This document shows positions 8,378 through 19,662 of a stretch of DNA of 35,673 nucleotides, piece by piece. Origin of the DNA: Thermodesulfobacteriota bacterium. Its GTDB lineage: Bacteria > DASVDK01. Location of the stretch: the NCBI GenBank assembly GCA_036562265.1, contig DATCKS010000522.1:1-35673 (forward strand), written 5' to 3'. Under the pieces are notes generated by a model. That model ran no database searches. It saw nothing but the letters and a program-made list of their open reading frames with translations, and had not been told where the DNA came from. A program made the translations under genes and the position numbers. How positions within the stretch are numbered: position 1 is the first letter of the stretch; each line of letters begins with the position of its first letter.

Positions 8378-9526
8378 ATGGCGGAGATCGTCTTCTGGGT
8401 TTCCCTCGGTGGCGTCCTCGGCACCTACGTTGGGTATCCGCTCGCCCTCTGGGCGTGGGCCCGGCTTGCTCCGAAGCCGGTGGCACGCAGGCCGGTGCTG
8501 CCGACCGTCTCGGTCGTGCTCGCCGTCAGGGACGAGGCCGACCGGATCGCGGCGCGGCTCGCCGACCTGCTCGCGCTCGACTACCCGCCGGACCGGCTCT
8601 CCGTGATCGTCGTCTCCGACGGCTCGACCGACGGCACGCCGGAGCGCGCCCGGGAGGCGGCCGCGGGCGACCCGCGCGTGACGGTGATCGCGCTCGACCG
8701 GCCGACCGGCAAGGCAGCCGCCCTCAACGCCGGCGTGGCGAAGGCGAGCGGCGAGATCGTCGTCTTCGCCGACGCGCGGCAGCGCTTTCGCCGCTCGGCG
8801 GTCCGACGCCTCGTGGAGAACTTCGCCGACCCGAGCGTGGGGGTCGCGAGCGGCCGCCTCGTGCTCGAGGACACCGAGGGGGTGGAGGTCGCCGAGGGGC
8901 TCTCGCTCTACTGGCGCTACGAGCTGTGGCTACGGGCACGCGAGAGCGCCGTCGGCTCGACGCTCGGGGCGACCGGCGCCATCTACGCGATCCGCCGCCA
9001 CCTCTATCAGCCGATCGCGCCCGACACGATCCTCGACGACGTGGCGATCCCGATGCTGGCCGTGCTCGCCGGGGCGCGCAGCGTCCTCGACGAGCGGGCG
9101 ATCGCGATCGATCGGGTGGCGCCGAGCGGCAACCACGAGCTTGCGCGAAAGGTCCGGACGCTGTACGGCAACTACCAGCTCCTCGCCCGCTACCCGGCGC
9201 TCCTCAGCCGGCGCAACCCCGTGCTCGGCCGGTTCCTGGCGCACAAGGTGGCGCGGCTCGCCGTCCCGCTCTGGCTCGCGCTGATCGCCGTCTCCACCGT
9301 CTTCCTCGACGGCGCCTACGCCGTCTTCGGCCTCCTGCACTGGGCGGCGTACGGCGCCGCGCTCGTCGGGTCGGCCGCCGACGGGCGCCGCGGCCGGCGG
9401 CGCGGCCCCGTGGCGCGCGTGGCGAGCGCGGCCTACGTCTTCCTCCTCCTCAACTGGGCGGCCCTGCTCGCCCTCGTCCGGTTCCTGCGAGGCGATCGCG
9501 CCGTCTGGGTCCGCACACGCGCCTGA
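8378..9526 (+). CDS. Membrane-embedded family 2 glycosyltransferase (COG1215-like, synthase-type architecture)
   Basis: N-terminal TM, then the GT2 core TVSVVLAVRDEADRI, VVSDGSTDGT, FADARQRF and ILDDVAIP. A degenerate QxxRW-position motif reads ARKVRTLYG. Three to four C-terminal TM helices follow (LAVPLWLALIAVSTVFL, AAYVFLLLNWAALLALV). Confidence 0.85.
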   Translation: MAEIVFWVSLGGVLGTYVGYPLALWAWARLAPKPVARRPVLPTVSVVLAVRDEADRIAARLADLLALDYPPDRLSVIVVSDGSTDGTPERAREAAAGDPRVTVIALDRPTGKAAALNAGVAKASGEIVVFADARQRFRRSAVRRLVENFADPSVGVASGRLVLEDTEGVEVAEGLSLYWRYELWLRARESAVGSTLGATGAIYAIRRHLYQPIAPDTILDDVAIPMLAVLAGARSVLDERAIAIDRVAPSGNHELARKVRTLYGNYQLLARYPALLSRRNPVLGRFLAHKVARLAVPLWLALIAVSTVFLDGAYAVFGLLHWAAYGAALVGSAADGRRGRRRGPVARVASAAYVFLLLNWAALLALVRFLRGDRAVWVRTRA

Positions 9527-9558: not shown

Positions 9559-10542
9559 ATGTCGACCCCCAACGTGAGCGTCGTCATTCCTGCGTACAAC
9601 GCTGCGCGGCACGTCGCCGGCGCGATCGAGAGCGCGCTCGCGGAGACCGACGTGGACGTGGAGGTGATCGTCGTCGACGACGGGTCGCAGGACGATACGG
9701 CGGACGTCGCCAGGGCCGTGTCGCCGCGCGTGCGCGTGCTGCGGCGCGGCAACGGGGGTCCCGGTGCGGCGCGCAACGCGGGCATCGCCGCGGCGCGGGC
9801 CCCACTCGTCGCCTTCCTCGACGCGGACGACCGCTGGCGACCGGGAGGGCTGGCACGGCGGCTCGCGGCTCTCGAGGCCGAGCCGTCGGCCGTGCTCGTG
9901 CATGCCCTCGTGACGTTCGTCGACGAGGAGGGGCGCGAGATTCCGTTCGATCCTCTGGCGTACCGGGTGCCGGCGGACGTGCGACGCGGGTGGGTGCTGC
10001 GTGCCCTCTTCTGGCACAACTTCGTGCACACCTCCACCGTCGTGGCGCGCCGCGACGCGCTCTGCGCCGTGGGGGGCTTCGACGAGCGGCGGGAGATCAT
10101 CGAGGACTACGACCTGTGGCTCAGGCTCGCCGCGCGCGGCCGCTTCGCCTTCCTGCCGGAGGTCGCGGCCGTGTACCGGTGGCACGCGCGGAGTCTCGGG
10201 CGCACGAACGTGGAACGGAGCTTCCTCGGGCAGGTGGCGCCGCTCGAGGGCGCGCTCGCCCGCGGGGGGCTTGCGCGGACCGCGGTCGGCCGGGCGTGGC
10301 TCAGGCGCCGCCGGCTCGCCCTCTTGCACGCGGATCACGCGGACGACCTCCTGCGGTTCCGGGGCGACACGGCCGGCGCCGCGGCCGCGCTCAGGCGGTC
10401 GCTCGCGCTGCAGCCGCTCGCGCCCCGCCGGGCGGCGATGCTCCTCGCGGCGCAGGCGGGACCGGGGGCGGTGGAGCGGGCGCGCCGCGTCATCCGGGCC
10501 GTGCGCGGGCTCGGCGCAGGGCGCCGCCCGAGGCGGGCGTGA
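9559..10542 (+). CDS. Family 2 glycosyltransferase (soluble/peripheral type)
   Basis: Canonical N-terminus MSTPNVSVVIPAYNAARHV, then VIVVDDGSQDDT and the DxD-equivalent FLDADD. A helical C-terminal domain follows. Confidence 0.9.
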   Translation: MSTPNVSVVIPAYNAARHVAGAIESALAETDVDVEVIVVDDGSQDDTADVARAVSPRVRVLRRGNGGPGAARNAGIAAARAPLVAFLDADDRWRPGGLARRLAALEAEPSAVLVHALVTFVDEEGREIPFDPLAYRVPADVRRGWVLRALFWHNFVHTSTVVARRDALCAVGGFDERREIIEDYDLWLRLAARGRFAFLPEVAAVYRWHARSLGRTNVERSFLGQVAPLEGALARGGLARTAVGRAWLRRRRLALLHADHADDLLRFRGDTAGAAAALRRSLALQPLAPRRAAMLLAAQAGPGAVERARRVIRAVRGLGAGRRPRRA

Positions 10543-10591
10543 GCGGAACGGCGAGGCCGGCGGCGGCGACCTTGCGACGACGGGGGGGCGC

Positions 10592-11821
10592 GTGAAGCTG
10601 CCGCGGTGGCTCACGAAGGCCCTGCGCGACGCCGACGATGCCATCGACACGCTGCGAGCCCGGCCGAGGCGAATCCTCTTCGACGCCAGGACGCCGATGA
10701 ACTACGTCATGTGGCGTCCGGTCGCCATGCGGCTGGCCGCGGACACGAGGATCGAGCAGTGGCACATGGCCGGCGAGGAGACGGGCCGACCCTACGCGCT
10801 CTACGAGCAGGTCGGCGTCCGCGACCGCATCATCTCGCGCTTCGAGGCGCAGCTCATGCGCTTCGACCTCTACGTGTGCGCCGACTTCGTCGCGACCTGG
10901 CTCAAGCGCCGCGTCCGGCGCGTGCACATCTTCCACGGCGTCGCGGGGAAGTACGGCCTCGACACGCCCGACCCCTCCATCGGACGCTTCGACGCCTACT
11001 TCTTCGTCAACCGCGACCGCCTGCGGCGCTACCGCGCGGCCGGGCTGGCCGATCGGCACAACACCTACCTCGTCGGGATGCCGAAGGTCGATCGGCTGGT
11101 GGACGGGTCGCTCACGCGCGAGGCGGCGCGCGCGGCGCTCGGGATCACCGGGTCGCGGCCCGTGGTGCTCTACGCGCCGACGTGGTCGCCGCACTCGTCG
11201 CTCGCCAGGCAGGGGGAGGCGCTGCTCAAGGCGCTTGGGAGGTTGGACGCCGAACTGGTGGTCAAGTTGCACGACCGGGCGTTCGACCCGAGACCGGCGT
11301 ACTCGTCGGGGGCCCACTGGCCGGCCAGGCTCGCCGCGCTCGAGGCGGCGGGGCGGCTGCGGCTCGTGCGCGACCCCGATGCCACGACGGCGCTGGCTGC
11401 GGCCGACTGCCTCGTCACCGATCACTCGTCGATCGGCTTCGAGTACCTCCTGCTCGACCGACCGCTCGTCGTCGTGGACGAGCCCGAGCTGCTCCGCGCC
11501 GCTCGGGTCACCGGCGACCACGTGATCTGGCTTCGGGAGGCCGCCACGACGGTCCGCGCCGCCGAGGAGGCGGCGGCCGCGGTCGGGGCCGGCCTCGCCG
11601 ACCCGGCGGCGCGGCGGGCCGAACGGCGCCGGGTCGCCCGGCGCCTCTTCTATCGACCGGGGACCGCCACGGATCGGGCCGTGGCGGCGATCTACAGGCT
11701 GCTCGAGCTTGCGCCGCCAGAGGCGGCGCTCACCAAGGAGTCCGACACCGATGGCCGAATCCTCCTGCGCCGTGATTCTCGCGGCAGGCGTGAGCCGGCG
11801 ACTCATGCCCCTCACGCGTGA
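10592..11821 (+). CDS. CDP-alcohol (glycerol/ribitol-phosphate type) phosphotransferase, TagB/TagF family (copy 1)
   Basis: Glyphos_transf-like motifs: VHIFHGVAGKY, VLYAPTWS, VVKLHDRAFD, LVTDHSSIGFEYLLLDRPLVVVD. It is a clear paralog of 17420-18670. GTG start. The non-conserved C-terminal tail overlaps the next gene by 71 nt. Confidence 0.75.
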   Translation: MKLPRWLTKALRDADDAIDTLRARPRRILFDARTPMNYVMWRPVAMRLAADTRIEQWHMAGEETGRPYALYEQVGVRDRIISRFEAQLMRFDLYVCADFVATWLKRRVRRVHIFHGVAGKYGLDTPDPSIGRFDAYFFVNRDRLRRYRAAGLADRHNTYLVGMPKVDRLVDGSLTREAARAALGITGSRPVVLYAPTWSPHSSLARQGEALLKALGRLDAELVVKLHDRAFDPRPAYSSGAHWPARLAALEAAGRLRLVRDPDATTALAAADCLVTDHSSIGFEYLLLDRPLVVVDEPELLRAARVTGDHVIWLREAATTVRAAEEAAAAVGAGLADPAARRAERRRVARRLFYRPGTATDRAVAAIYRLLELAPPEAALTKESDTDGRILLRRDSRGRREPATHAPHA

Positions 11822-12554
11822 CATCCCGAAGTGCCTGCTCGTCCTCGGCGGCCGCACGCTGCTGGAGCGCCAGCTCGCCCTTCTCGCCGATCTCGGCATC
11901 GAGGACGTGGTCGTGGTGACCGGCCACGGCGCCGAGGCGGTCCGCGCCGCGTGCGCGGGCCGGGCTCGCTGCGTGCATAACCCGCACTTCGAGGTGACGA
12001 ACAGCCTCTACAGTCTGGCGCTGGCGGAGGACGCGATGCCGGAGGGACCGATGCTGCTGCTCAACAGCGACGTCCTGATCCACCCGGCGCTGGTCGAGCG
12101 CCTGCTCGCCGATCCGGCCGACGACGCGCTCCTCGTCGACCTCGACTCGCGGCTCGACGACGAAGCGATGAAGGTCGCGATCTCGGCGGGCAAGGTCGTC
12201 GCCATCGACAAGCGGCTCGACCGGTCGATCACCGACGGCGAGAACGTGGGCGTCGTCAAGTTCGGCCGGGAGGGACGCCGGGCGCTCTTCCGGGCGGCGC
12301 GAGGGCTCCTGTCGGAGGGGCGGCTGTCGGCCTGGGCCCCGGCCGCCTACCAGGAGATCCTCGAGGAGAGGCCGATCACCGCGGTACCGACCGACGGGTT
12401 GCCGTGGATCGAGATCGACTTTCCGGAAGACCTCGTGCGGGCGATGCGCGACGTCGTGCCGCGGATCGACGGCGCCGTCGGCCACGGGCGCGCCAGGGGG
12501 CGCGCCGGGAAGGGGACCCTGCGGGCGAGCGCCCACATCGGCGCGAGACCGTGA
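11751..12554 (+). CDS. Nucleotidyltransferase of the LicC/COG1213 type (putative cytidylyltransferase making a CDP-activated alcohol phosphate)
   Basis: N-terminal NTP-binding loop AVILAAGVSRRLMPLTRDIPKCLL, then NSDVL, GENVGVVKF and the C-terminal WIEIDFPEDL. ATG at 11751 gives the typical short N-terminus. Confidence 0.75.
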   Translation: MAESSCAVILAAGVSRRLMPLTRDIPKCLLVLGGRTLLERQLALLADLGIEDVVVVTGHGAEAVRAACAGRARCVHNPHFEVTNSLYSLALAEDAMPEGPMLLLNSDVLIHPALVERLLADPADDALLVDLDSRLDDEAMKVAISAGKVVAIDKRLDRSITDGENVGVVKFGREGRRALFRAARGLLSEGRLSAWAPAAYQEILEERPITAVPTDGLPWIEIDFPEDLVRAMRDVVPRIDGAVGHGRARGRAGKGTLRASAHIGARP

Positions 12555-12594: not shown

Positions 12595-13365
12595 ATGATC
12601 GGGATCGAAGCGCTCAAGCTGCGCGTGCGGCGACGAGAGACCCCGACCGCCCGGGCGCTCTACCGTCTGGCGAAGGCGTATCGCTCGGCCCACGTGCCGG
12701 TGATCCGCCCGCTCCACCTCGCGCTCTACTACGAGCGCGAGGCGCGCCTGAGCCTCTGGCGGACGTTCCTCAAGGCGGTCTACCACGAGCCGCTCTTCCG
12801 GGCGCGGTGCGAGCGGGTGGGGGAGCGGCTGCGGCTCACCAACGGGATCCCGTACATCGAGGGGCACCTCGTCATCCGGCTCGGCGACGACGTCGCGATC
12901 GACGGCGTCTCGTCGCTCATCGCCGCCAAGGTGCACGACCGGCCGGTCTTCGAGGTGGGCGACCGGGTCTTCCTGGGACACCAGCTCACCGTGAGCGTCG
13001 CCGAACGGGTGACGATCGGCTCCGACGTGCTCGTCTCCGACCGGGTCATGATCGCGGACAACGACGGCCACCCGCTCGACCCGGCGCGCCGCGCCGCGGG
13101 CCACCCGGTGGCGGCTGCGGACGTACGACCGGTCCGGATCGAGGACGGCGCCTGGATCGGGACGCGCGCCGTCATCCTCAAGGGGGTCACCGTCGGGCGA
13201 GGGGCCGTCGTCGCCTCGGGGAGTGTCGTCACCCGGGACGTGCCGCCCTACAGCGTCGTCGCCGGGAACCCGGCGCGGGTGGTGAGGCGGGACTGCCGCG
13301 ACGGCGCGCCGCCGGAGGAGCGCGCCCCGCAAGGCGTTGCCGGGTTGGCGGGGGAGGCGCGGTGA
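12595..13365 (+). CDS. Hexapeptide-repeat (left-handed beta-helix) O-acetyl/acyltransferase
   Basis: Hexapeptide repeats IGDDVAIDG, VGDRVFLGH, IGSDVLVSD, IEDGAWIGTRAVILKGVTVGRGAVVASGSVV and the terminal PPYSVVAGNPARVV. SD GGAGGGAGG lies upstream of the ATG. Confidence 0.88.
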   Translation: MIGIEALKLRVRRRETPTARALYRLAKAYRSAHVPVIRPLHLALYYEREARLSLWRTFLKAVYHEPLFRARCERVGERLRLTNGIPYIEGHLVIRLGDDVAIDGVSSLIAAKVHDRPVFEVGDRVFLGHQLTVSVAERVTIGSDVLVSDRVMIADNDGHPLDPARRAAGHPVAAADVRPVRIEDGAWIGTRAVILKGVTVGRGAVVASGSVVTRDVPPYSVVAGNPARVVRRDCRDGAPPEERAPQGVAGLAGEAR

Positions 13366-14879
13366 GCATCCGGGCGAGGCTCATCGAGCGAGGCCGGGCG
13401 CCGTCGGACGACCGATCCGCCGGCGCCGCGCCGAGACGGCTCGACGGCGCGAGGCCCCGCGAGACGACCGACGGCAGCCGGCCGGTCCGCCTCGGCGGTC
13501 CGGCCGCGAAGGCGGCGACGAGCGAGCCGGCGCCGCTTGCACGTCCCGCGGCGCCTCGCGCGTCGACGGCGGCGTTCGGGACGCTCGCACTCTTCCTCGT
13601 GGTCCTCTACACGCGTCCACAGGACCTCGTCCCGCAACTCGCCGTGCTCCGCCTCGCGTTCGTGACGGGGCTCGCCGCCGCGTTCTTCCACGCGACCGAT
13701 GCCCTGCGGCGGGGCGAACCGATCGTCCGCGCCGGGCGGGAGGTCTGGCTCGTGGCGGCGCTGCTCGCGCTCGGGGCGGCGTCGATCCCGTTCGCCCTCT
13801 GGCCAGGCGGCAGCTTCGCGGTCTTCACCGACCAGCTCGTCAAGGTGGCGCTGGCCTTCGTCCTCGTCGCCCACGTGGTCGACACGCCGGCGCGCGCGCG
13901 CGTGCTGGTCGGCGTCCTGGTGGGCGCCGGGGTCTACCTCGCGGCCGGCGCCCTGTACCTCGTCGCGACCGGCGAGGCGACCCGGTACGGCGGCCGCGCC
14001 GAGGGCATCGTCGGCGGGATGTTCCGCGATCCGAACGACCTGGCCCTCTCGCTGGTCGTGATGATGGGGCTCGCCGGCTTCGAGGCGATCGGCAGCCGCA
14101 GCCGGACGGTCAGGCTCCTCTACGTCGGCGCGCTCGGCGTCATGCTGGCCGGGATGCTGTCCACCTTCTCGCGCGGCGGGCTCGTGGCGCTGCTCGCCGC
14201 CGCCGCGGTCGGGCTCTGCCGGGTCGCCCGGCACGGCCGCGGGCTCGCCCTGGCCGGCCTCGTGCTCCTGGCCGGGGTCGCCGTGGCCGCCGCCCCGTCC
14301 GGCTACTCCGAGCGCGCGTCGTCCATCGTCACCGGGGAGGACAACGGCTCGATCGAGGCGCGGCTCACGACGCTGCGCCACGGCGTCGCGATCCTCCTCG
14401 AGCACCCGGTGGTCGGCGTCGGCCTCGGCAACTTCCGCATCGCCGAGGGCGAGCGGCACGGCTTCGTCGGCAAGTGGAACGAGGCGCACAACGCCTTCAT
14501 CCAGATCGGCGCCGAGACCGGCTGGGCGGGGCTTGCGGTCTACGTCGCCCTGGCCCTCGCGGCCGTGGCCAACGCGCGAGCCGCCGCGAGACGGTCGCGC
14601 GACCCGCGGCTCGTCGGCACGGCGCACGGCCTCGAGACGGCGCTCGTCGGCTTCCTCGTCGGCGCGATGTTCCTGTCGCAGGCCTACACCTGGCACTTCT
14701 ACATCCTGCTCGGCCTCGCCGTCGCGCTCAGGCGAATGGCCGACGCGGAGGCCGCTGGCGACGCGCCCAGGCCCGTGCCGGTCGAGCGCGTCCCCGCCGC
14801 CCCCGCGCGGCTGTCGCGGTGGTCCCCCCGGCCGGCGGGTCGGGCCGTCCCGCCCGGCGCCGCGGAGGCGAGGCGTTGA
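13362..14879 (+). CDS. O-antigen ligase/polymerase family membrane protein (Wzy_C domain; Wzy-like polymerase or exosortase-associated O-glycosylation ligase type)
   Basis: At least 10 predicted TM segments. Wzy_C core is FSRGGLVALLAAAAV ... NEAHNAFIQIGAETGWAGLAVYV. The GTG overlaps the upstream stop (GTGA). The Arg/Pro-rich N-terminal extension of about 85 aa makes the exact start uncertain. Confidence 0.8.
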   Translation: MSIRARLIERGRAPSDDRSAGAAPRRLDGARPRETTDGSRPVRLGGPAAKAATSEPAPLARPAAPRASTAAFGTLALFLVVLYTRPQDLVPQLAVLRLAFVTGLAAAFFHATDALRRGEPIVRAGREVWLVAALLALGAASIPFALWPGGSFAVFTDQLVKVALAFVLVAHVVDTPARARVLVGVLVGAGVYLAAGALYLVATGEATRYGGRAEGIVGGMFRDPNDLALSLVVMMGLAGFEAIGSRSRTVRLLYVGALGVMLAGMLSTFSRGGLVALLAAAAVGLCRVARHGRGLALAGLVLLAGVAVAAAPSGYSERASSIVTGEDNGSIEARLTTLRHGVAILLEHPVVGVGLGNFRIAEGERHGFVGKWNEAHNAFIQIGAETGWAGLAVYVALALAAVANARAAARRSRDPRLVGTAHGLETALVGFLVGAMFLSQAYTWHFYILLGLAVALRRMADAEAAGDAPRPVPVERVPAAPARLSRWSPRPAGRAVPPGAAEARR

Positions 14880-14892
14880 CGGAGGCGACACC

Positions 14893-15918
14893 GTGACCTG
14901 GACCGTCCTCATCTGCACGCGCGACCGGGCCGGGCTCCTCGCCGAGACGCTCGACTCGCTGCGCCGTCTCGACGATCCCGGCGAGCCCTACGAGGTGGTC
15001 GTCGTCGACAACGGCTCGACCGACGACACCCGCGCCGTCGTCGAGCGGGCCGCCGCCGCGAGCCCCGTGCCGCTGCGCTACGTGTACGAGCCGAGGGGCG
15101 GGCTGTCGGCGGCTCGCAACCGGGGGGTCCGGGAGGCGCAGGGCGACCGGATCGCCTTCACCGACGACGACGTGCTCGTCGAGGCCGGCTGGCTCGCGGC
15201 CTTCGCCCGCGCCTTCGCGGCCCGGCCGGTCGACTTCCTCGGCGGTCGGGTCGTGCCGCGGTGGGGCGCGGAGCGGCCCTCCTGGCTGCCGGCCGGGCGC
15301 ACCCGTGGGGAGATCTGGGGCGCGATCGCCCTCTTCGACTACGGCGACGAGCCGCGCCCACTCGCCAAGCCGCTCGGCGCGAACATGGCCTTCCGGCGGC
15401 GGCCGCTCCTCGAGGTCGGCGGCTTCCGCGAGGACCTCGGCCGCGACAGCGCCTCGCTCAAGGGGCAGGAGGTGCCCGAACTCCTCGAGCGCCTGAAGGC
15501 GGCGAGCGGCAGGGGCGGCTGGTACGTGCCGGACGCCGTGGTCCAGCACTGGATCCCTCCCGACCGGCTCACGAAGGGCTACTTCCGGCGGTGGTTCTAC
15601 TGGAAGGGGATCTCGCGCGCGGCGGTACGGGACCGGGTCCACGTGCGGGGGGTCTGGCTCCCCGCGTCGCAGGTGCGGCGAATCGCCGGCCTGCCGCGCG
15701 GCCTCTATCGAGACGTCCTCGAAGCGGCCGGCCGCCTCGCGCTCCGGACGGCCCGCGGCGACCGGGCGGGCGCCTTCGAGGCCGAGGTCCGACTCTGGTA
15801 CGCGGCCGGCTACGCGCGGGCCACCTGGCTCGGCGACCCGTCGCCGACCGGCGCGAACGCCCGGGCGTCCGTCCCCGGGAGGCCGGAGCCGGCGGCCGCG
15901 GCGACGCGCGACTCGTGA
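14893..15918 (+). CDS. Family 2 glycosyltransferase (paralog pair with 18667-19662)
   Basis: WTVLICTRDRAGLL, YEVVVVDNGSTDDT, FTDDDVLV and the C-terminal WFYWKGISRA motif are all shared with the paralog. Confidence 0.88.
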   Translation: MTWTVLICTRDRAGLLAETLDSLRRLDDPGEPYEVVVVDNGSTDDTRAVVERAAAASPVPLRYVYEPRGGLSAARNRGVREAQGDRIAFTDDDVLVEAGWLAAFARAFAARPVDFLGGRVVPRWGAERPSWLPAGRTRGEIWGAIALFDYGDEPRPLAKPLGANMAFRRRPLLEVGGFREDLGRDSASLKGQEVPELLERLKAASGRGGWYVPDAVVQHWIPPDRLTKGYFRRWFYWKGISRAAVRDRVHVRGVWLPASQVRRIAGLPRGLYRDVLEAAGRLALRTARGDRAGAFEAEVRLWYAAGYARATWLGDPSPTGANARASVPGRPEPAAAATRDS

Positions 15919-17423
15919 GCACCGCGCGGACGCTCGGCCGCAACACCGCGGCGCGGTACGGCGCGCTGGCGGTCGACGCCCTCGTCGGCCTGGTGCTCCT
16001 CCCCTACAACCTGGGGCACCTCGGCGCGGAGGACTACGGCCTCTGGATCCTCTCGGCCACGGTCGCCCGGTACGTGTCGTTCCTCGATCTCGGCTTCGGC
16101 GGGGGGCTCGTGCGCTTCGTCGCCGAGTGCCGCGCGACGGGTGACAGCCGCCGGCTCTCGGAGATCGCGAGCACCGTCTTCGCCGCCTTCTCGGTCGCCG
16201 GCGTGGCCGCGCTCGCGATCATGGGGGGCGTCGCGCTCGCCTACGACCGGCTCTTCGCCGTCGAGGCGGCCCAGGCCGAGGTGGGGCGGACGGTGCTCCT
16301 CGTCGTCGCCGCACGGCTCGCGCTCGGCCTCCCGCTGTCGGTCTTCGGCGCGGTGATCAACGGCGCGCAGCGCTACGCGATGAACAACGCCGTGGCGATC
16401 GTGACGACGCTCGCCGCCGCGGCCGCCAACGTGATCGCCATCGAGCGAGGCGGCGGCGTCCTGGCGGTCGTCGTCGCCACGACGGCCGTCCACCTCCTGG
16501 CCTACGTCGCCTACGTGGTGAACGCCTACCGGGTGCAGCCCGACCTCACGGTCTCGCCGCGGCTCGCCAGCCTGGCGAGGCTGCGCGAGGTCGGCGCGTT
16601 CAGCGGCTACCTCTTGGTCCTCGACTGGTCGCACAAGGTGAACTACTCGCTCGACACCTTCGTCATCGGCTGGGCGCTCGGCCCCCGAGCGGTCTCGCTC
16701 TTCACGCCGTCGGTCCGCGTCGCGCAGACCATGCGCGACCTGACGGCGCAGTTCCACAGCGTCCTCTTCCCGGCGGTCGTCGACCTCGGTACCCGCGGCG
16801 ATCATCGGCGCCTCGTGACGCTGCTCATCGAGGGGACGAGGCTGTCGACGGCGCTCGCCCTGGCGGTCGGGCTCGGCGTGATCGTCCTGGCCGAGCCGCT
16901 CCTCGTCGCGTGGGTCGGCCCGAGCGTGGCGTCGAGCGCGGCGGTCCTCCAGGTCCTCGCCCTCTCGATGCTGATCCGCGTCGGCCAGGCGACCGGGGCG
17001 ACCATCCTCAAGGGGGCGGGCGGGCACCGGTACCTGGCGGCGAACAACGCCGCCGTTGCCGCCTGCAACCTGGCCCTGTCGGTCGCGCTCGTGGGGCGGC
17101 TCGGGATCCTCGGCGTCGCGCTCGGCACCGCGATCCCCGTGTCGGTCGGCTCCGTCTTCATCGTGCCGCGGGCCTGCCGCCGCCTCGGCGTGCCGGTCCG
17201 GCGGTTCTGGCGGGAGGCGATCTGGCCGGTGCTCTGGCCGGCCCTGCCGGCCGCGGTGGCGCTCTGGGTCGGCCGCGAGACGCTCGAGCCGAACCACGTC
17301 GTCACCGTGCTCGCCTGCGGCGGCGCGGCGGCGGCGCTCTACCTGGGCCTCGTGTACGGGTTCGGCCTCACGCCGGACGCCAGAGCCACGCTCCAGGCGC
17401 GGCTCAGGGCGGCGGTCGCATGA
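15915..17423 (+). CDS. Wzx-type oligosaccharide flippase (MOP/polysaccharide biosynthesis protein family)
   Basis: N-terminus RTLGRNTAARYGALAVDALVGLVLLPYNLGHLGAEDYGLWIL is typical of Wzx/RfbX. About 12-14 TM helices run throughout. GTGA overlap with the upstream gene. Confidence 0.88.
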   Translation: MSTARTLGRNTAARYGALAVDALVGLVLLPYNLGHLGAEDYGLWILSATVARYVSFLDLGFGGGLVRFVAECRATGDSRRLSEIASTVFAAFSVAGVAALAIMGGVALAYDRLFAVEAAQAEVGRTVLLVVAARLALGLPLSVFGAVINGAQRYAMNNAVAIVTTLAAAAANVIAIERGGGVLAVVVATTAVHLLAYVAYVVNAYRVQPDLTVSPRLASLARLREVGAFSGYLLVLDWSHKVNYSLDTFVIGWALGPRAVSLFTPSVRVAQTMRDLTAQFHSVLFPAVVDLGTRGDHRRLVTLLIEGTRLSTALALAVGLGVIVLAEPLLVAWVGPSVASSAAVLQVLALSMLIRVGQATGATILKGAGGHRYLAANNAAVAACNLALSVALVGRLGILGVALGTAIPVSVGSVFIVPRACRRLGVPVRRFWREAIWPVLWPALPAAVALWVGRETLEPNHVVTVLACGGAAAALYLGLVYGFGLTPDARATLQARLRAAVA

Positions 17424-18670
17424 TCGGCTGGCGCACGGTCCGGCGCCGCATCGTCGAGGCGCTGCGCGACCTCGACGACGCCTGGCACGCGCGCACGGCC
17501 AGGCGGCGCCGCGTCCTCTTCGAGGCGCGCACGCCGGTCAACTTCGCCTGCCTCGCGCCGATCCACGAGCGGCTCGCGGCCGATCCGCGCGTCGAGTGCT
17601 GGTACACGGCCACCGAGGGGGACGTGCCGGCCGACCGCCTCTACGCCGCCTTCGGCATCACCGAGCGGGTGGTGCCGCAGGCCAAGGCCGAATGGCTCAA
17701 GGTCGACCTCTACCTGAACAGCGACTTCGCCAGGATGGCGCGCCTTCGACGCCGGGCCGCGCACGTCCACTTCTTCCACGGGGTCGCCGGCAAGTACGAC
17801 CTCGACGGGACGACGACGCCGGTCAGGGACATGAGCCACTTCGACACGCTCGCGCGCTTCGACCGGATCGCCTTCGCCAACGAGGACCGGCTCCGCAAGT
17901 GGCGGGCCGTGGGGCTCCTCCGCCCTGACGACCCGAGGCCCGTTCTGATCGGCTACCCGAAGGTGGACGGCCTCGTGACCGGGCGCTGGCCGCGGGCGGC
18001 CACGCTCGCGCGCCTGGGGCTCGACCCGACCCGCCCGGTGCTCCTCTACGCGCCGACCTGGTCGGCCGCCGCGTCGCTCCACGTCTTCGGCGGCGAGGCG
18101 ATCGTGGCGGCGCTCCGGCGGACCGGCCACCAGGTGATCGTCAAGCTGCACGACCGGGCCTACGACCGGCGGGAGCGCTACTCCGCCGGCATCGACTGGG
18201 CCTCGCGCCTCAGGCCGCTCGAGGCCGACCCCGCGGTGAAGATCGTGACCTGGCCCGACGCGACGCCGCTGCTCGCCGCGGCCGACCTCTTGGTCTCGGA
18301 CCACTCGTCGGTCGCGTTCGAGTACCTGCTCGTCGACCGGCCGGTCATCGTCTTCGACCTGCCCGAGCTGATCGTCCGGGCGCGCATCAACGCCGATCAG
18401 GTGCGGTGGATACGCCAGGCGGCCGACGTGATCGCGACGCCGGACGAACTCCCCGATGCGGTCCGGCGTGGGCTCGACGCGCCGAAGGCGCGGTCGGCCG
18501 AGCGCCGGGTGGTCGCCGAGCGGCTCTTCTACCGTCCCGGGACCGCCACCGACCGCGCCGTGGCCCTCTGCTACGAGCTGATGGGCCTGCCGGTCCCGGA
18601 GACAACCGGCGCGCGGCTCCTGGCCGGCGACGACGAGCGGGACGCCGTGGCCCTGGGGAGCCGGCCGTGA
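17420..18670 (+). CDS. CDP-alcohol phosphotransferase, TagB/TagF family (copy 2)
   Basis: It has the same motif set as copy 1: VHFFHGVAGKY, VLLYAPTWS, IVKLHDRAYD, LVSDHSSVAFEYLLVDRPVIVFD, LFYRPGTATDRAV. ATGA overlap upstream and GTGA overlap downstream. Confidence 0.75.
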   Translation: MIGWRTVRRRIVEALRDLDDAWHARTARRRRVLFEARTPVNFACLAPIHERLAADPRVECWYTATEGDVPADRLYAAFGITERVVPQAKAEWLKVDLYLNSDFARMARLRRRAAHVHFFHGVAGKYDLDGTTTPVRDMSHFDTLARFDRIAFANEDRLRKWRAVGLLRPDDPRPVLIGYPKVDGLVTGRWPRAATLARLGLDPTRPVLLYAPTWSAAASLHVFGGEAIVAALRRTGHQVIVKLHDRAYDRRERYSAGIDWASRLRPLEADPAVKIVTWPDATPLLAAADLLVSDHSSVAFEYLLVDRPVIVFDLPELIVRARINADQVRWIRQAADVIATPDELPDAVRRGLDAPKARSAERRVVAERLFYRPGTATDRAVALCYELMGLPVPETTGARLLAGDDERDAVALGSRP

Positions 18671-19662
18671 CGGTCCCCCGCGCCTCCGTCGTCGTCTGCA
18701 CCTACAACCGCGCCGGCCGGCTCGCCGACGCGCTCGCCTCGATCGATCGGCTCGAGGACCCGGGGGTGCCGTACGAGGTGGTGGTGGTGGACAACGGCTC
18801 GACGGACGGCACCCCCGCGCTCCTGCGCGACTGGGTCGCGCGGGCGCATCCGGGCGGCCCGGTGCGCCGGACGCTCCACGAGCCGCGCCCCGGGAAGTCG
18901 TTCGCCCTGAACCTGGCCGTCACGTCCACGACGACCGACTGGGTGGCGCTCACCGACGACGACGTCCTCGTGGCGCCCGACTGGCTCGCCGTGGCGGCCA
19001 GGAGCCTCGCCGAGCGTCCCGACGTCGACTACCTCGGCGGCAAGGTCCTCCCGCTCTGGGAGACCGAGCCGCCGGCCTGGTTCTCCATGGCGGAGCGCGA
19101 CCTCTTCGGGACGATCGCCATCCTCGACTACGGCGACGAGGGCTTCGACTTCGACGGGAGGGTGCCGCTCGGCGCCAACATCGTCTACCGCCGCCGCGCC
19201 TTCGAGCGGGCCGGCCTCTTCCGGACCGACCTCGGTCGCGACCACTCGACGCTGCGCGGGCAGGAGTTCCCGGAGCACCTCCTGCGGCTCGAGGCGGCGG
19301 GGGGACGGGGGCGGTACGTGCCCGACCTCGTGGTGCACCACCACGTCCCGGCCCGGCGGCTCACGAAGCGCTACTACCGCGAGTGGTTCTACTGGAAGGG
19401 GATCTCGCGCGCGCTGGTGACCGAGACCGCGCCGATCGACGAGCTCGGCGTCGACTACCGCGCCGTCCCGCGCATCGCCGGCGTGCCGCGCTTCATGCTG
19501 CGCCAGGCGGTCGTGACCGCCGTCGACATGGCGGGGCGCAGGCTCCGGGGCGACCTCCCCGGCGCCTTCGTCCGCGAGGCGTGGCTCTGCTACCTCTACG
19601 GCTTCGCCCGGCAGTCGTGGCGCATCTGGCGCGAGAACGGGCACCGGAGGCGGAGCGGGTGA
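18667..19662 (+). CDS. Family 2 glycosyltransferase (paralog of 14893-15918)
   Basis: ASVVVCTYNRAGRL, YEVVVVDNGSTDGT, LTDDDVLV, LGANIVYRR, WFYWKGISRA. Confidence 0.88.
   Translation: MTVPRASVVVCTYNRAGRLADALASIDRLEDPGVPYEVVVVDNGSTDGTPALLRDWVARAHPGGPVRRTLHEPRPGKSFALNLAVTSTTTDWVALTDDDVLVAPDWLAVAARSLAERPDVDYLGGKVLPLWETEPPAWFSMAERDLFGTIAILDYGDEGFDFDGRVPLGANIVYRRRAFERAGLFRTDLGRDHSTLRGQEFPEHLLRLEAAGGRGRYVPDLVVHHHVPARRLTKRYYREWFYWKGISRALVTETAPIDELGVDYRAVPRIAGVPRFMLRQAVVTAVDMAGRRLRGDLPGAFVREAWLCYLYGFARQSWRIWRENGHRRRSG

What the first reader, a model, noticed from the sequence alone, without database searches (positions are those of the whole stretch)
10592..12554. TagF-family phosphotransferase plus a LicC/COG1213-type cytidylyltransferase in a diderm Wzx/Wzy EPS locus
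A TagB/TagF-like enzyme (motifs HGVAGKY, YAPTWS, KLHDRAFD, DHSS..FEYLLLDRP) is followed by a nucleotidyltransferase whose motifs fit enzymes that make CDP-activated alcohol phosphates (CDP-glycerol, -ribitol, -choline, -inositol or related). A second TagF-like paralog lies at 17420-18670. Together they predict one or two phosphodiester-linked substituents, or a teichoic-acid-like segment, in the repeat unit. TagF-like polymerases are known in some Gram-negative group 2 (ABC transporter) capsules. Here they are embedded in a flippase/polymerase pathway. No gene for the alcohol-phosphate precursor is visible, so the identity of the transferred group is open. The two genes also overlap out of frame by 71 nt.
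Basis: partly seen in the sequence, partly recalled or inferred. Interest (0 to 1): 0.6.

Follow-up and report, generated by a model that had tools for sequence, protein, structure and literature searches.

The report
CDP-alcohol cassette decorating an exopolysaccharide
A slime-polysaccharide gene cluster of an uncultured high-GC bacterium carries a widespread but unstudied enzyme pair, a LicC/PntC-type cytidylyltransferase and short TagF-type phosphotransferases, that most likely hangs a phosphate-linked small alcohol (probably glycerol) onto each sugar repeat: a new member of a known kind of pathway.

Summary
TagF-like gene 1 lies at 10592-11821. The nucleotidyltransferase lies at 11751-12554 and overlaps gene 1 by 71 nt out of frame. 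TagF-like gene 2 lies at 17420-18670 and is 49% identical to gene 1.

Both TagF-like proteins pass the PF04464 cut-off. Copy 1 was modelled and folds like TagF. The subfamily keeps both catalytic histidines.

By sequence profile and predicted fold, the nucleotidyltransferase belongs with PntC, LicC and inositol-1-phosphate cytidylyltransferase, not with sugar-1-phosphate enzymes.

The two gene types form a conserved cassette. It occurs in 36 of 41 full-flank related loci and is directly adjacent in at least five other lineages (by record labels). No precursor gene travels with it.

The closest nucleotidyltransferase relatives that lack a TagF partner sit beside CDP-alcohol phosphotransferases.

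The proteins have no polymerase N-domain, so single additions per Und-PP repeat unit are most likely.

The head group is unresolved. Glycerol phosphate is the best guess. Inositol phosphate is weakened, and choline and phosphonate are unlikely.

TagF-like enzymes in Wzx/Wzy pathways are already known from pneumococcal capsules and E. coli O antigens, so this is a new member of a known kind.

The scan had noted the same cassette before on other DNA.

The parts
10592..11821 (+). TagF-like phosphotransferase, copy 1 (409 aa, GT-B only). Catalytic H115 lies in FHGVAGKY and H227 in KLHDR. Residues 383-409 form a disordered tail that overlaps the next gene.
   Evidence: PF04464 E 8e-17. AF2 pLDDT 86.5. 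Foldseek best TM-score 0.60-0.62 to TagF 3L7x, with further hits to Bcs3, Cps3D and TarL. hhalign places H227 on TagF H584. Invariant motifs.
11751..12554 (+). CTP:phospho-alcohol cytidylyltransferase of the LicC/PntC/IPCT clade (267 aa). It is the predicted maker of the CDP-alcohol donor.
   Evidence: PF12804 E 6e-18. Family profile against PDB: PntC 113 bits, LicC 94, TM IPCT 75, Af IPCT 66, sugar-1-P enzymes below 59 and partial. AF2 pLDDT 92.8. Foldseek top 22 hits are all PntC, IPCT or LicC, with TM 0.83 to PntC.
11751..11821 (+). 71-nt out-of-frame overlap between the TagF-like 1 tail and the cytidylyltransferase start. An AAGGAG Shine-Dalgarno sequence lies inside the TagF gene.
   Evidence: Same geometry in the window, L004 and L002. 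The TagF tail is disordered.
17420..18670 (+). TagF-like phosphotransferase, copy 2 (416 aa), 49% identical to copy 1. It has 4-nt overlaps with Wzx upstream and a GT2 downstream.
   Evidence: PF04464 E 3e-18 over the full profile, positions 12-362. BLASTP 49% identity, E 7e-109. Start and stop positions.
9559..10542 (+). GT2 glycosyltransferase, the likely working partner of TagF-like 1. In other bacteria its homolog is fused to the N-terminus of the TagF-like domain.
   Evidence: PF00535 E 1e-31. In 15 of 16 two-domain homologs examined (of about 620-710 aa) an N-terminal GT2 part matches this gene best; the 16th carries a Wzy part.
18667..19662 (+). GT2 glycosyltransferase translationally coupled to TagF-like 2.
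   Evidence: PF00535 E 4e-23. Homologs (GT2c/d type) are present in 58 of 64 related loci.
15915..17423 (+). Wzx-type flippase.
   Evidence: PF13440 E 2e-13.
13362..14879 (+). Wzy_C polymerase/ligase-type membrane protein.
   Evidence: PF04932 E 2e-19.
12595..13365 (+). Hexapeptide-repeat O-acetyltransferase (WbbJ/WcaF-like).
   Evidence: PF00132. NF007240 E 2e-21.
6730..8127 (+). Priming polyprenyl-phosphate sugar-phosphate transferase, XrtA/PEP-CTERM system type.
   Evidence: TIGR03013, 499.6 bits against a cut-off of 393.

Best explanation
The cytidylyltransferase (11751-12554) condenses CTP with a small phospho-alcohol taken from general metabolism, giving a CDP-alcohol. sn-Glycerol-3-phosphate is the most likely substrate (about 0.4).

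The two short TagF-like enzymes would work at the cytoplasmic face of the inner membrane. The N-domain histidine (H115 in copy 1) would activate a sugar hydroxyl of the undecaprenyl-diphosphate-linked repeat unit. That hydroxyl attacks the beta-phosphate of the CDP-alcohol and releases CMP. H227 would contact the leaving group. The result is one alcohol-phosphate phosphodiester per enzyme.

Each TagF-like enzyme probably acts in tandem with its neighbouring GT2. In that case the alcohol phosphate may lie within the backbone as well as on a side branch.

The finished unit is then flipped by Wzx, polymerised by Wzy, and exported by the Wza / chain-length / tyrosine-kinase set of this XrtA-type locus.

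Shown here: family membership, fold (AF2 model of copy 1 and of the cytidylyltransferase), catalytic residues, and gene linkage. Inferred: donor identity, acceptor, and the number and position of additions.
For: **TagF side**
- PF04464 scores are above cut-off for both copies.
- The AF2 model is closest to TagF by TM-score.
- H115, H227, YAPTWS and DHSS are invariant in 41 relatives.
- H227 aligns with TagF H584.
- The aromatic-H-G-x-x-x-K loop has the length of the glycerol-type loop described for TagF and TarF (PMC10901376).

**Cytidylyltransferase side**
- The family profile and the predicted fold both rank PntC, LicC and IPCT first.

**Linkage**
- A cytidylyltransferase homolog lies within 10 kb of the TagF-like gene in 58 of 79 loci, and in 36 of 41 loci with full flanks.
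- The two genes are directly adjacent in records labelled Blastocatellia, Thermodesulfobacteriota, delta-proteobacteria, Planctomycetota, Aquificales and Sandaracinaceae, including outside EPS loci.
- On the NTase tree, TagF-linked rows form several clades across these lineages.
- NTase relatives without a TagF partner sit beside CDP-alcohol phosphotransferases (PF01066). One neighbour is an IPCT/DIPPS-like fusion. The family's partners are therefore always CDP-alcohol users.

**Availability of the substrate**
- No kinase, reductase, MIPS or PEP mutase is conserved in 64 clustered loci.

**Own genome (95% complete)**
- It holds only these two PF04464 genes and one copy of this NTase.
- It has no TagD-type GCT, no LicD, no choline kinase and no true PEP mutase.

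**Single addition rather than polymerisation**
- Both proteins are GT-B only (409 and 416 aa), like the primases TarB and TarF. Polymerases carry an extra N-domain (PMC10901376).

**Coupling to the GT2**
- 15 of 16 two-domain homologs examined carry an N-terminal GT2 part that best matches the upstream gene 9559-10542.
Against: - No biochemical data exist for any member of either subfamily.
- Known CDP-glycerol synthases belong to the TagD (HxGH) or FAD-synthetase families, not to the LicC fold (PMC8262930). A glycerol-3-phosphate activity for this enzyme would be unprecedented in what I could read.
- The polyol-loop residues are Ala-Gly. They are neither the Pro-Leu of glycerol-phosphate transferases nor the Gly-Ala-Phe of ribitol-phosphate transferases, so the head group could be something else.
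- Equivalence of H115 with TagF H444 rests on motif pattern, invariance and position after a beta-strand. It does not rest on a residue-level structural superposition, which I could not run.
- The assembly is fragmented (626 contigs), so absent genes may simply be unassembled.
Confidence: 0.72

Rival explanations
1. The donor is CDP-inositol. The cytidylyltransferase is an inositol-1-phosphate cytidylyltransferase, and the TagF-like enzymes add inositol phosphate to the repeat unit.
For: - The best NCBIfam hit of the NTase is the IPCT domain of IPCT/DIPPS (NF041135, E 1e-19, full coverage).
- IPCT structures rank 8-22 in Foldseek.
- The own genome has a myo-inositol-1-phosphate synthase.
- 34 of 35 cassette-bearing Acidobacteriota-type genomes have one too.
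- A sister clade of the NTase pairs with CDP-alcohol phosphotransferases, as IPCT/DIPPS does.
- The Ala-Gly polyol loop could leave more room than Pro-Leu.
Against: - The MIPS association disappears under control. 116 of 121 genomes of the same order have MIPS regardless of the cassette.
- Outside Acidobacteriota only 6 of 11 cassette-bearing genomes have MIPS, and none of the three Planctomycetota do.
- MIPS is never in or near the loci. In the window's genus it stands alone next to a respiratory operon.
- PntC and LicC score higher than IPCT.
- The genome has five CDP-alcohol phosphatidyltransferases that could account for MIPS through inositol lipids.
Confidence: 0.1
2. The head group is another small phospho- or phosphono-compound. 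Candidates are ribitol-5-P, glycerol-2-P, phosphoethanolamine, phosphocholine, 2-aminoethylphosphonate, or a phospho-acid such as phosphoglycerate.
For: - The closest solved structure is the AEP-specific PntC (TM 0.83).
- The polyol loop (Ala-Gly) and the NTase pocket residues (invariant N105 and W195-A196-P197) match no characterised specificity class.
- LicC-fold enzymes are known for many head groups (PMC6697681).
Against: - No PEP mutase above cut-off (best 137 bits against 319), no choline kinase and no LicD.
- No TarJ-like reductase or kinase is conserved in 64 loci.
- The two Glu residues that hold the amine of AEP in PntC, E104 and E196 (PMC6697681), align with invariant Asn and Pro here. 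This argues against a cationic head group.
Confidence: 0.2
3. The TagF-like enzymes transfer hexose-1-phosphate from a UDP-sugar, as some TagF-like capsule polymerase domains do. The nucleotidyltransferase is then an ordinary sugar-1-phosphate enzyme, or is unrelated to them.
For: - TagF-like domains that transfer hexose phosphate exist (PMC5974469).
- The NTase also hits sugar-1-P nucleotidyltransferase families at lower scores (TIGR03992, E 4e-18).
Against: - Profile and fold place the NTase with phospho-alcohol cytidylyltransferases. Sugar enzymes score lower and align only at the N-terminus.
- The NTase is tightly and anciently linked to TagF-like genes.
- Its alternative partners are CDP-alcohol phosphotransferases.
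Confidence: 0.06
4. The TagF-like proteins are processive polymerases that build a poly(alcohol-phosphate) or poly(glycosyl-alcohol-phosphate) teichoic-acid-like chain, together with the adjacent GT2s.
For: - The GT2-TagF fusions mirror the GT-A plus TagF-like domain layout of capsule polymerases (PMC5974469).
- There are two GT2/TagF pairs in the locus.
Against: - There is no N-terminal polymerase domain and no TPR domain. The proteins have primase-like size.
- The locus has its own Wzy polymerase, Wzx flippase and chain-length system and no ABC exporter.
Confidence: 0.1

Closest known systems
Streptococcus pneumoniae Wzy-dependent capsules carrying glycerol phosphate: WchX/cps23FK TagF-like transferase with gct (CDP-glycerol) or gtp1-3 (CDP-2-glycerol)
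   Same: - A single-addition TagF-like phosphotransferase and a CDP-alcohol synthase sit inside a Wzx/Wzy repeat-unit pathway.
- They give a phosphodiester-linked polyol on each repeat (PMC1391919; PMC10901376).
   Different: - The pneumococcal host is Gram-positive.
- Its precursor genes (gtp1, gtp3) or a TagD-type gct accompany the transferase. Here a LicC/PntC-clade enzyme stands alone with no precursor genes.
- The host here is a diderm with a Wza/Wzc-type, XrtA-system export set.
TagB/TarB and TarF glycerol-phosphate primases of wall teichoic acid synthesis (PF04464)
   Same: - GT-B-only architecture of about 400 aa.
- Two catalytic histidines and the YAPTW(R/S) and D(Y/H)SS motifs.
- Presumed single or few additions onto a polyprenyl-linked intermediate.
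   Different: - Only about 15% identity.
- The polyol loop is Ala-Gly, not Pro-Leu (TarF) or Gly-Ser/Ala-Leu (TagB/TarB).
- The donor comes from a LicC-fold enzyme, not from TagD.
- The acceptor is an EPS repeat unit, not the teichoic-acid linkage unit.
TagF-like capsule polymerases of Gram-negative group 2 capsules (Cps3D, Cps7D, Cps1B, Bcs3, CslB)
   Same: - A TagF-like domain in a diderm works with a glycosyltransferase. Here it is a separate GT2, which is fused in relatives.
- The model also hits Cps3D 8QOY and Bcs3 8A0M by fold.
   Different: - Those are large multidomain processive polymerases in ABC-transporter pathways that build on a lipid-linked poly-Kdo primer.
- Here the enzymes are short and sit in a Wzx/Wzy pathway.
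PntC (Tde1415) / LicC / IPCT cytidylyltransferases
   Same: - Fold and N-terminal CTP-binding signature.
- TM 0.83 and rmsd 2.2 A to PntC. The profile E-value is 9e-32 to PntC and 7e-26 to LicC.
   Different: - 20-26% identity.
- The amine-binding Glu104 and Glu196 of PntC align with invariant Asn and Pro here.
- No ppm, lic or DIPPS partner genes. The partner is a TagF-like transferase instead of LicD or a CDP-alcohol phosphotransferase.
E. coli O antigens with polyol phosphate (O118/O151 ribitol phosphate with the rib gene; O130 glycerol phosphate; TagF-like WbeS)
   Same: - A Gram-negative surface polysaccharide (O antigen) that carries a phosphodiester-linked polyol.
- The CDP-polyol gene lies in the cluster (PMC7685785; PMC10901376).
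   Different: - The activating enzyme there is an IspD/TarI-type bifunctional reductase-pyrophosphorylase.
- Membership of those transferases in this subfamily was not tested here.

Membership tests
TagF-like / Glyphos_transf (PF04464) | Profile match above the curated gathering score | tested here: met
   61.6 and 66.5 bits against a cut-off of 22.1. The family profile hits TagF at 1.5e-12 and Cps3D at 1.8e-9 in PDB.
TagF-like / Glyphos_transf (PF04464) | GT-B two-Rossmann fold resembling the TagF C-terminal domain | tested here: met
   AF2 pLDDT 86.5, pTM 0.85. Foldseek TM 0.60-0.62 to TagF. UDP-GlcNAc 2-epimerases score lower, at 0.52-0.56.
TagF-like / Glyphos_transf (PF04464) | Second catalytic histidine (TagF H584, TarL H433) | tested here: met
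   hhalign aligns H227 (KLHDR) with TagF H584. It is invariant in 41 sequences.
TagF-like / Glyphos_transf (PF04464) | Catalytic base histidine preceded by an aromatic residue (TagF W-H444, TarL W299-H300), with a Lys closing the polyol loop | tested here: inconclusive
   F114-H115-G-V-A-G-K120 is invariant and follows strand 109-113. The pattern matches the description in PMC10901376. No residue-level alignment to H444 could be obtained: sequence alignments stop at about TagF residue 460.
TagF-like / Glyphos_transf (PF04464) | Uses a CDP-polyol (or NDP-sugar) donor and releases the nucleoside monophosphate | not testable with these tools
   Only inferred, from linkage to a cytidylyltransferase.
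TagF-family polymerases (TagF, TarL, TarK, capsule polymerases) | Additional N-terminal domain (or TPR/GT domains) preceding the GT-B domain | tested here: not met
   The proteins are 409 and 416 aa. The GT-B fold starts after one N-terminal helix. Criterion from PMC10901376.
LicC/PntC/IPCT clade of cytidylyltransferases (COG1213-type) | N-terminal LAAGxGxRL...PK nucleotide-binding signature and C-terminal EIDxxxDL | tested here: met
   ILAAGVSRRLMPLTRDIPK and WIEIDFPEDL are invariant or nearly so in 40 sequences.
LicC/PntC/IPCT clade of cytidylyltransferases (COG1213-type) | Closer to phospho-alcohol cytidylyltransferases than to sugar-1-phosphate nucleotidyltransferases | tested here: met
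   Profile against PDB: PntC 113, LicC 94, IPCT 75 and 66 bits over the full length; sugar enzymes at most 59 bits, N-terminal only. The Foldseek top 22 are all PntC, IPCT or LicC.
LicC (phosphocholine) / PntC (AEP) specificity | Acidic residues contacting the cationic amine (PntC E104, E196), with lic or ppm genes nearby | tested here: not met
   These positions align with invariant N105 and P197. No LicD, choline kinase or PEP mutase is present in the genome.
TagD/Gct-type CTP:glycerol-3-phosphate cytidylyltransferase | HxGH cytidylyltransferase family (PF01467, TIGR01518) | tested here: not met
   The NTase is PF12804, not PF01467. The best TIGR01518 hit anywhere in the genome is 31.7 bits against a cut-off of 165.
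XrtA/PEP-CTERM exopolysaccharide locus | System-specific marker genes (chain-length determinant TIGR03007, sugar transferase TIGR03013, ATPase TIGR03015, OMP TIGR03016, tyrosine kinase TIGR03018) | tested here: met
   TIGR03007 (298 against 279) and TIGR03013 (500 against 393) are above cut-off. TIGR03015 (309 against 324), TIGR03018 (160 against 231) and TIGR03016 (65 against 91) are best hits but fall below cut-off.
XrtA/PEP-CTERM exopolysaccharide locus | An exosortase (EpsH/XrtA) in the genome | tested here: not met
   No PF09721 match in the 95%-complete, 626-contig assembly. Absence is not proven.

The most novel reading that the evidence does not exclude
The cassette defines an uncharacterised CDP-activated head group, or a third, LicC-fold class of CTP:glycerol-phosphate cytidylyltransferase. 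The TagF-like subfamily has its own invariant HGVAGKY donor loop. The NTase subfamily has its own N/WAP pocket. Together they would install a phosphodiester substituent not yet described in diderm exopolysaccharides. The same donor would be reused by a sister clade, with a CDP-alcohol phosphotransferase and a flippase-like protein, to make an unknown membrane lipid in Acidobacteriota and Gemmatimonadota.
Probability: 0.3. Interest if true: 0.6.

Novelty: new member of a known kind. Interest (0 to 1): 0.38.

Why it matters
Phosphodiester-linked substituents change the charge, metal binding, hydration and phage or immune recognition of exopolysaccharides.

This cassette recurs widely among species-representative genomes: at least 259 TagF-like loci and at least 579 NTase loci. 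Soil Acidobacteriota dominate the best-matching records, which also include records labelled Planctomycetota and Thermodesulfobacteriota. The EPS chemistry of these groups is almost unknown.

Identifying the head group would let hundreds of EPS loci be annotated. It might also add a new cytidylyltransferase specificity that is useful for enzymatic synthesis of teichoic-acid-like polymers.

For this window alone, the finding is a solid functional annotation rather than a surprise.

Tried and rejected
1. **MIPS co-occurrence as evidence for inositol phosphate.** It looked striking: 34 of 35 cassette genomes against 59% of the phylum sample. It collapsed at order level, where 96% have MIPS regardless. 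Outside Acidobacteriota the figure is 6 of 11.
2. **Phosphonate reading**, prompted by PntC being the top structural neighbour. There is no PEP mutase above cut-off, and the amine-binding Glu residues are not conserved.
3. **Phosphocholine.** No LicD or choline kinase is present.
4. **A survey within the window's own GTDB phylum** was impossible. It holds only two genomes.
5. **Looking up MIPS in the genomes of L086, L088, L001 and L002** failed because the records are not held.
7. **Literature searches.** The search for 'WbeS' returned only unrelated acronyms. The search for PEP-CTERM plus glycerol phosphate returned nothing relevant.
8. **My recollection that a COG1213-type glycerol-phosphate cytidylyltransferase is characterised in Archaeoglobus or Aquifex** was not borne out. 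The characterised Aquifex enzymes belong to the HxGH and FAD-synthetase families (PMC8262930).
Full report
**What is there**

The window is about 74% G+C. Third-position GC analysis and ORF listing give a single long plus-strand operon-like array. Pfam and NCBIfam annotate it as follows.

| Coordinates | Annotation |
|---|---|
| 1-975 | sigma-54 activator (partial) |
| 1082-1720 | Wza-like exporter |
| 1723-3006 | PEP-CTERM-system outer-membrane protein |
| 3044-4528 | XrtA-system chain-length determinant (TIGR03007, above cut-off) |
| 4541-5644 | XrtA-associated ATPase |
| 5641-6654 | tyrosine autokinase |
| 6730-8127 | priming sugar transferase (TIGR03013, above cut-off) |
| 8378-9526 | GT2 |
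| 9559-10542 | GT2 |
| 10592-11821 | TagF-like 1 |
| 11751-12554 | nucleotidyltransferase |
| 12595-13365 | hexapeptide acetyltransferase |
| 13362-14879 | Wzy_C protein |
| 14893-15918 | GT2 |
| 15915-17423 | Wzx |
| 17420-18670 | TagF-like 2 |
| 18667-19662 | GT2 |

Further right lie two unassigned secreted proteins, a two-component system, three GT4 genes, a GGDEF/HD-GYP protein and an epimerase.

**The TagF-like proteins**

- Both pass the PF04464 gathering score. They are 49% identical to each other.
- A search of 5.8 billion proteins returned more than 1900 relatives at E<=1e-5 among the 8000 candidates scored, almost all from metagenomes.
- In a 41-sequence alignment the motifs FHGVAGKY, YAPTWS, KLHDR and DHSS..FE are invariant.
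- The AF2 model of copy 1 is confident (pLDDT 86.5, pTM 0.85).
- Its best TM-scores in PDB are to S. epidermidis TagF (0.60-0.62). Bcs3, Cps3D and TarL also match. UDP-GlcNAc 2-epimerases, the generic GT-B neighbours, score lower.
- Profile-profile alignment puts H227 on TagF H584.
- H115 sits in an aromatic-His-Gly-x-x-x-Lys loop directly after a beta-strand. This is the pattern described for the catalytic base of TagF (W-H444) and TarL (W299-H300) (PMC10901376). I could not obtain a residue-level alignment for this histidine.
- That paper also reports that family polymerases carry an extra N-terminal domain, whereas the primases TarB and TarF do not. The proteins here are 409 and 416 aa and GT-B only, which points to single additions.
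- The donor polyol loop has the length of the glycerol-type loop (Pro-Leu in TagF and TarF). Its residues are Ala-Gly, which matches none of the described classes.

**The nucleotidyltransferase**

- It must start at ATG 11751. That start is preceded by AAGGAG and is conserved in the two nearest genomes.
- The public gene call starts 18 codons later and removes the LAAGxxxRL motif.
- A 40-sequence family profile searched against PDB ranks:
  - the phosphonate cytidylyltransferase PntC first (113 bits, full length);
  - then LicC (94 bits);
  - then the T. maritima and A. fulgidus inositol-1-phosphate cytidylyltransferases (75 and 66 bits);
  - sugar-1-phosphate enzymes score at most 59 bits and align only at the N-terminus.
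- The AF2 model (pLDDT 92.8) gives the same order by fold. TM is 0.83 to PntC, and the top 22 hits are all PntC, IPCT or LicC.
- The two glutamates that hold the amine of AEP in PntC (PMC6697681) align with an invariant Asn and Pro in this family. This argues against a cationic head group.

**Are the two linked?**

Yes, strongly.

- The species-representative genome collection holds at least 259 loci with this TagF-like subfamily. The best 80 records are mostly labelled Acidobacteriota (Vicinamibacterales, Blastocatellia, Pyrinomonadaceae); a few carry other labels, including the window's sister genome.
- An NTase homolog of mostly 40-49% identity lies within 10 kb in 58 of 79 loci, and in 36 of the 41 loci with full flanks.
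- Searching with the NTase family gives at least 579 loci.
- With only 4-kb flanks, 31 of 79 have the TagF-like gene directly adjacent. These include records labelled Thermodesulfobacteriota, delta-proteobacteria, Planctomycetota, Phycisphaerales and Aquificales.
- In a Sandaracinaceae genome and in another metagenome contig, the pair is adjacent outside any EPS locus.
- On a maximum-likelihood tree of 122 NTases, the TagF-linked sequences form several clades spanning these lineages. The window groups with L004 and L002.

The remaining close NTase relatives are informative. They form one clade (9 rows, SH-aLRT 99). They sit between a CDP-alcohol phosphotransferase (PF01066) and a flippase-like LPG_synthase_TM protein. 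In one case the neighbour is an IPCT/DIPPS-like NTase-CDP-alcohol-transferase fusion. Every partner of this NTase family is therefore an enzyme that consumes a CDP-activated alcohol. This supports the CDP-alcohol reading and counts against a sugar-nucleotide reading.

**Which alcohol?**

I clustered all ORFs of 64 related loci. The recurrent families are TagF-like, GT2, Wzx, the ATPase, Wzy, the NTase, a UDP-glucose-dehydrogenase-type enzyme, a PLD-plus-CBM protein, the priming transferase, GT4, an EEP phosphoesterase and a CofD/YvcK-like protein. No kinase, reductase, inositol-phosphate synthase or PEP mutase recurs. The substrate should therefore be a housekeeping metabolite.

The window's own genome is 95% complete but in 626 contigs. 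It has:
- only these two PF04464 genes;
- one copy of this NTase;
- no TagD-type glycerol-3-phosphate cytidylyltransferase;
- no LicD and no choline kinase;
- no PEP mutase above cut-off.

It does have a myo-inositol-1-phosphate synthase. 34 of 35 cassette-bearing genomes have one as well, against 59% of a random sample of the phylum.

That apparent association is phylogenetic. 96% of a sample of the same order has the synthase regardless of the cassette. Outside Acidobacteriota only 6 of 11 cassette-bearing genomes have it.

Inositol phosphate is thus possible in this organism but is not a general requirement. sn-Glycerol-3-phosphate is universal and is the usual TagF-family substrate, so it is the best guess at about 0.4. 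The caveat is that no LicC-fold glycerol-3-phosphate cytidylyltransferase is described in what I could read (PMC8262930).

**Partners and mechanism**

I examined 16 two-domain proteins among the 120 best TagF-like homologs. Fifteen carry an N-terminal GT2 part that best matches gene 9559-10542, the gene just upstream of TagF-like 1; the sixteenth carries a Wzy part. TagF-like 2 is translationally coupled to another GT2.

By analogy with the GT-A plus TagF-like layout of capsule polymerases (PMC5974469), each pair probably acts consecutively. The alcohol phosphate may then be glycosylated and lie in the backbone.

The likely sequence is as follows.
1. Assembly on undecaprenyl diphosphate at the cytoplasmic face.
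2. One phosphodiester added per TagF-like enzyme.
3. Wzx flipping.
4. Wzy polymerisation.
5. Export through the Wza / chain-length / kinase set.

**The overlap**

The last 23 codons of TagF-like 1 overlap the NTase start. The TagF tail (residues 383-409) is predicted to be disordered. The overlap geometry is identical in three genomes. In all other lineages the gene order is NTase then TagF-like. I read the overlap as a lineage-specific read-through tail that provides translational coupling, not as a feature with its own function.

**Comparison with the known, and novelty**

CDP-polyol synthase plus TagF-like transferase inside Wzx/Wzy pathways is established for pneumococcal capsules (PMC1391919) and is reported for E. 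coli O antigens (PMC10901376, PMC7685785). So the pathway context is not new.

Three things are new: the subfamilies themselves, their pairing (a LicC/PntC-clade enzyme instead of TagD or TarI), and their wide distribution in environmental diderms.

Earlier notes of this scan had flagged the same enzyme set in another genome (e1-4662224). Another note flagged its link to PLD- and EEP-type phosphoesterases in Acidobacteriota (e1-5017646). I confirmed the Pfam assignments and the recurrence of those neighbours. They are not present in this window.

**Verdict**

This is a new member of a known kind. The head group is unresolved.

Noticed in passing
whole genome G000; window 1-8127: The locus carries XrtA/PEP-CTERM-system marker genes (TIGR03007 and TIGR03013 above cut-off). 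No exosortase (PF09721) is found anywhere in the 95%-complete assembly.
   Followed up: partly
L121:2720-5702, L128, L147, L152:2941-5857, L161, L099, L105: A sister clade of the cytidylyltransferase sits in a conserved triad: CDP-alcohol phosphotransferase (PF01066), NTase, and a flippase-like LPG_synthase_TM protein (PF03706). In L152 the last two are fused. It occurs in Vicinamibacterales, Gemmatimonadota and Terriglobia. It looks like an undescribed head-group lipid pathway.
   Followed up: partly
P0023, P0027, P0075 and others (homologs of window 9559-11821): Many Acidobacteriota homologs are single GT2(N)-TagF-like(C) fusion proteins of about 630 aa. One homolog (P0094) is fused to a Wzy_C domain.
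   Followed up: partly
L028:9477-12599, L076:18431-19708, L040:15228-17309: In the Acidobacteriota loci the cassette travels with two kinds of neighbour. One is a 1040-aa PLD-like protein carrying three CBM6/35 modules (32 of 64 loci). The other is EEP-family phosphoesterases (13 plus 6 loci). This suggests extracellular trimming of phosphodiesters. Neither is detectable in this window.
   Followed up: partly
L064:3345-4454 and 12 other loci: A CofD/YvcK-family gene (PF01933, E 3e-91) lies directly after the cytidylyltransferase in 13 Vicinamibacterales-type loci. Its role is unknown.
   Followed up: no
whole genome G000: In GTDB terms, the genome's phylum holds only two species genomes, both of one genus. 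The nearest public record is labelled Thermodesulfobacteriota.
   Followed up: no
window 11751-11805: The public gene call for the nucleotidyltransferase (P0121, 249 aa) starts at ATG 11805 and omits the essential LAAGxxxRL motif. The same happens in L002 and L003, where the call is 230 aa.
   Followed up: yes
G000:C406:3-1334; L083:9260-10588: A stand-alone myo-inositol-1-phosphate synthase lies next to an alternative-complex-III-like operon, with no adjacent CDP-alcohol transferase. The genome has five PF01066 genes elsewhere.
   Followed up: partly
window 19659-21713 and 24738-26846: Two large proteins (684 and 702 aa) have no Pfam or NCBIfam match. They flank the two-component system. The 684-aa one was searched for homologs and matched only the sister genome among the related loci.
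   Followed up: no
PDB 3L7M: The entry title says 'H548A'. The deposited sequence differs from wild type at residue 584 (RMAYL against RMHYL), so the title is a typo for H584A.
   Followed up: yes
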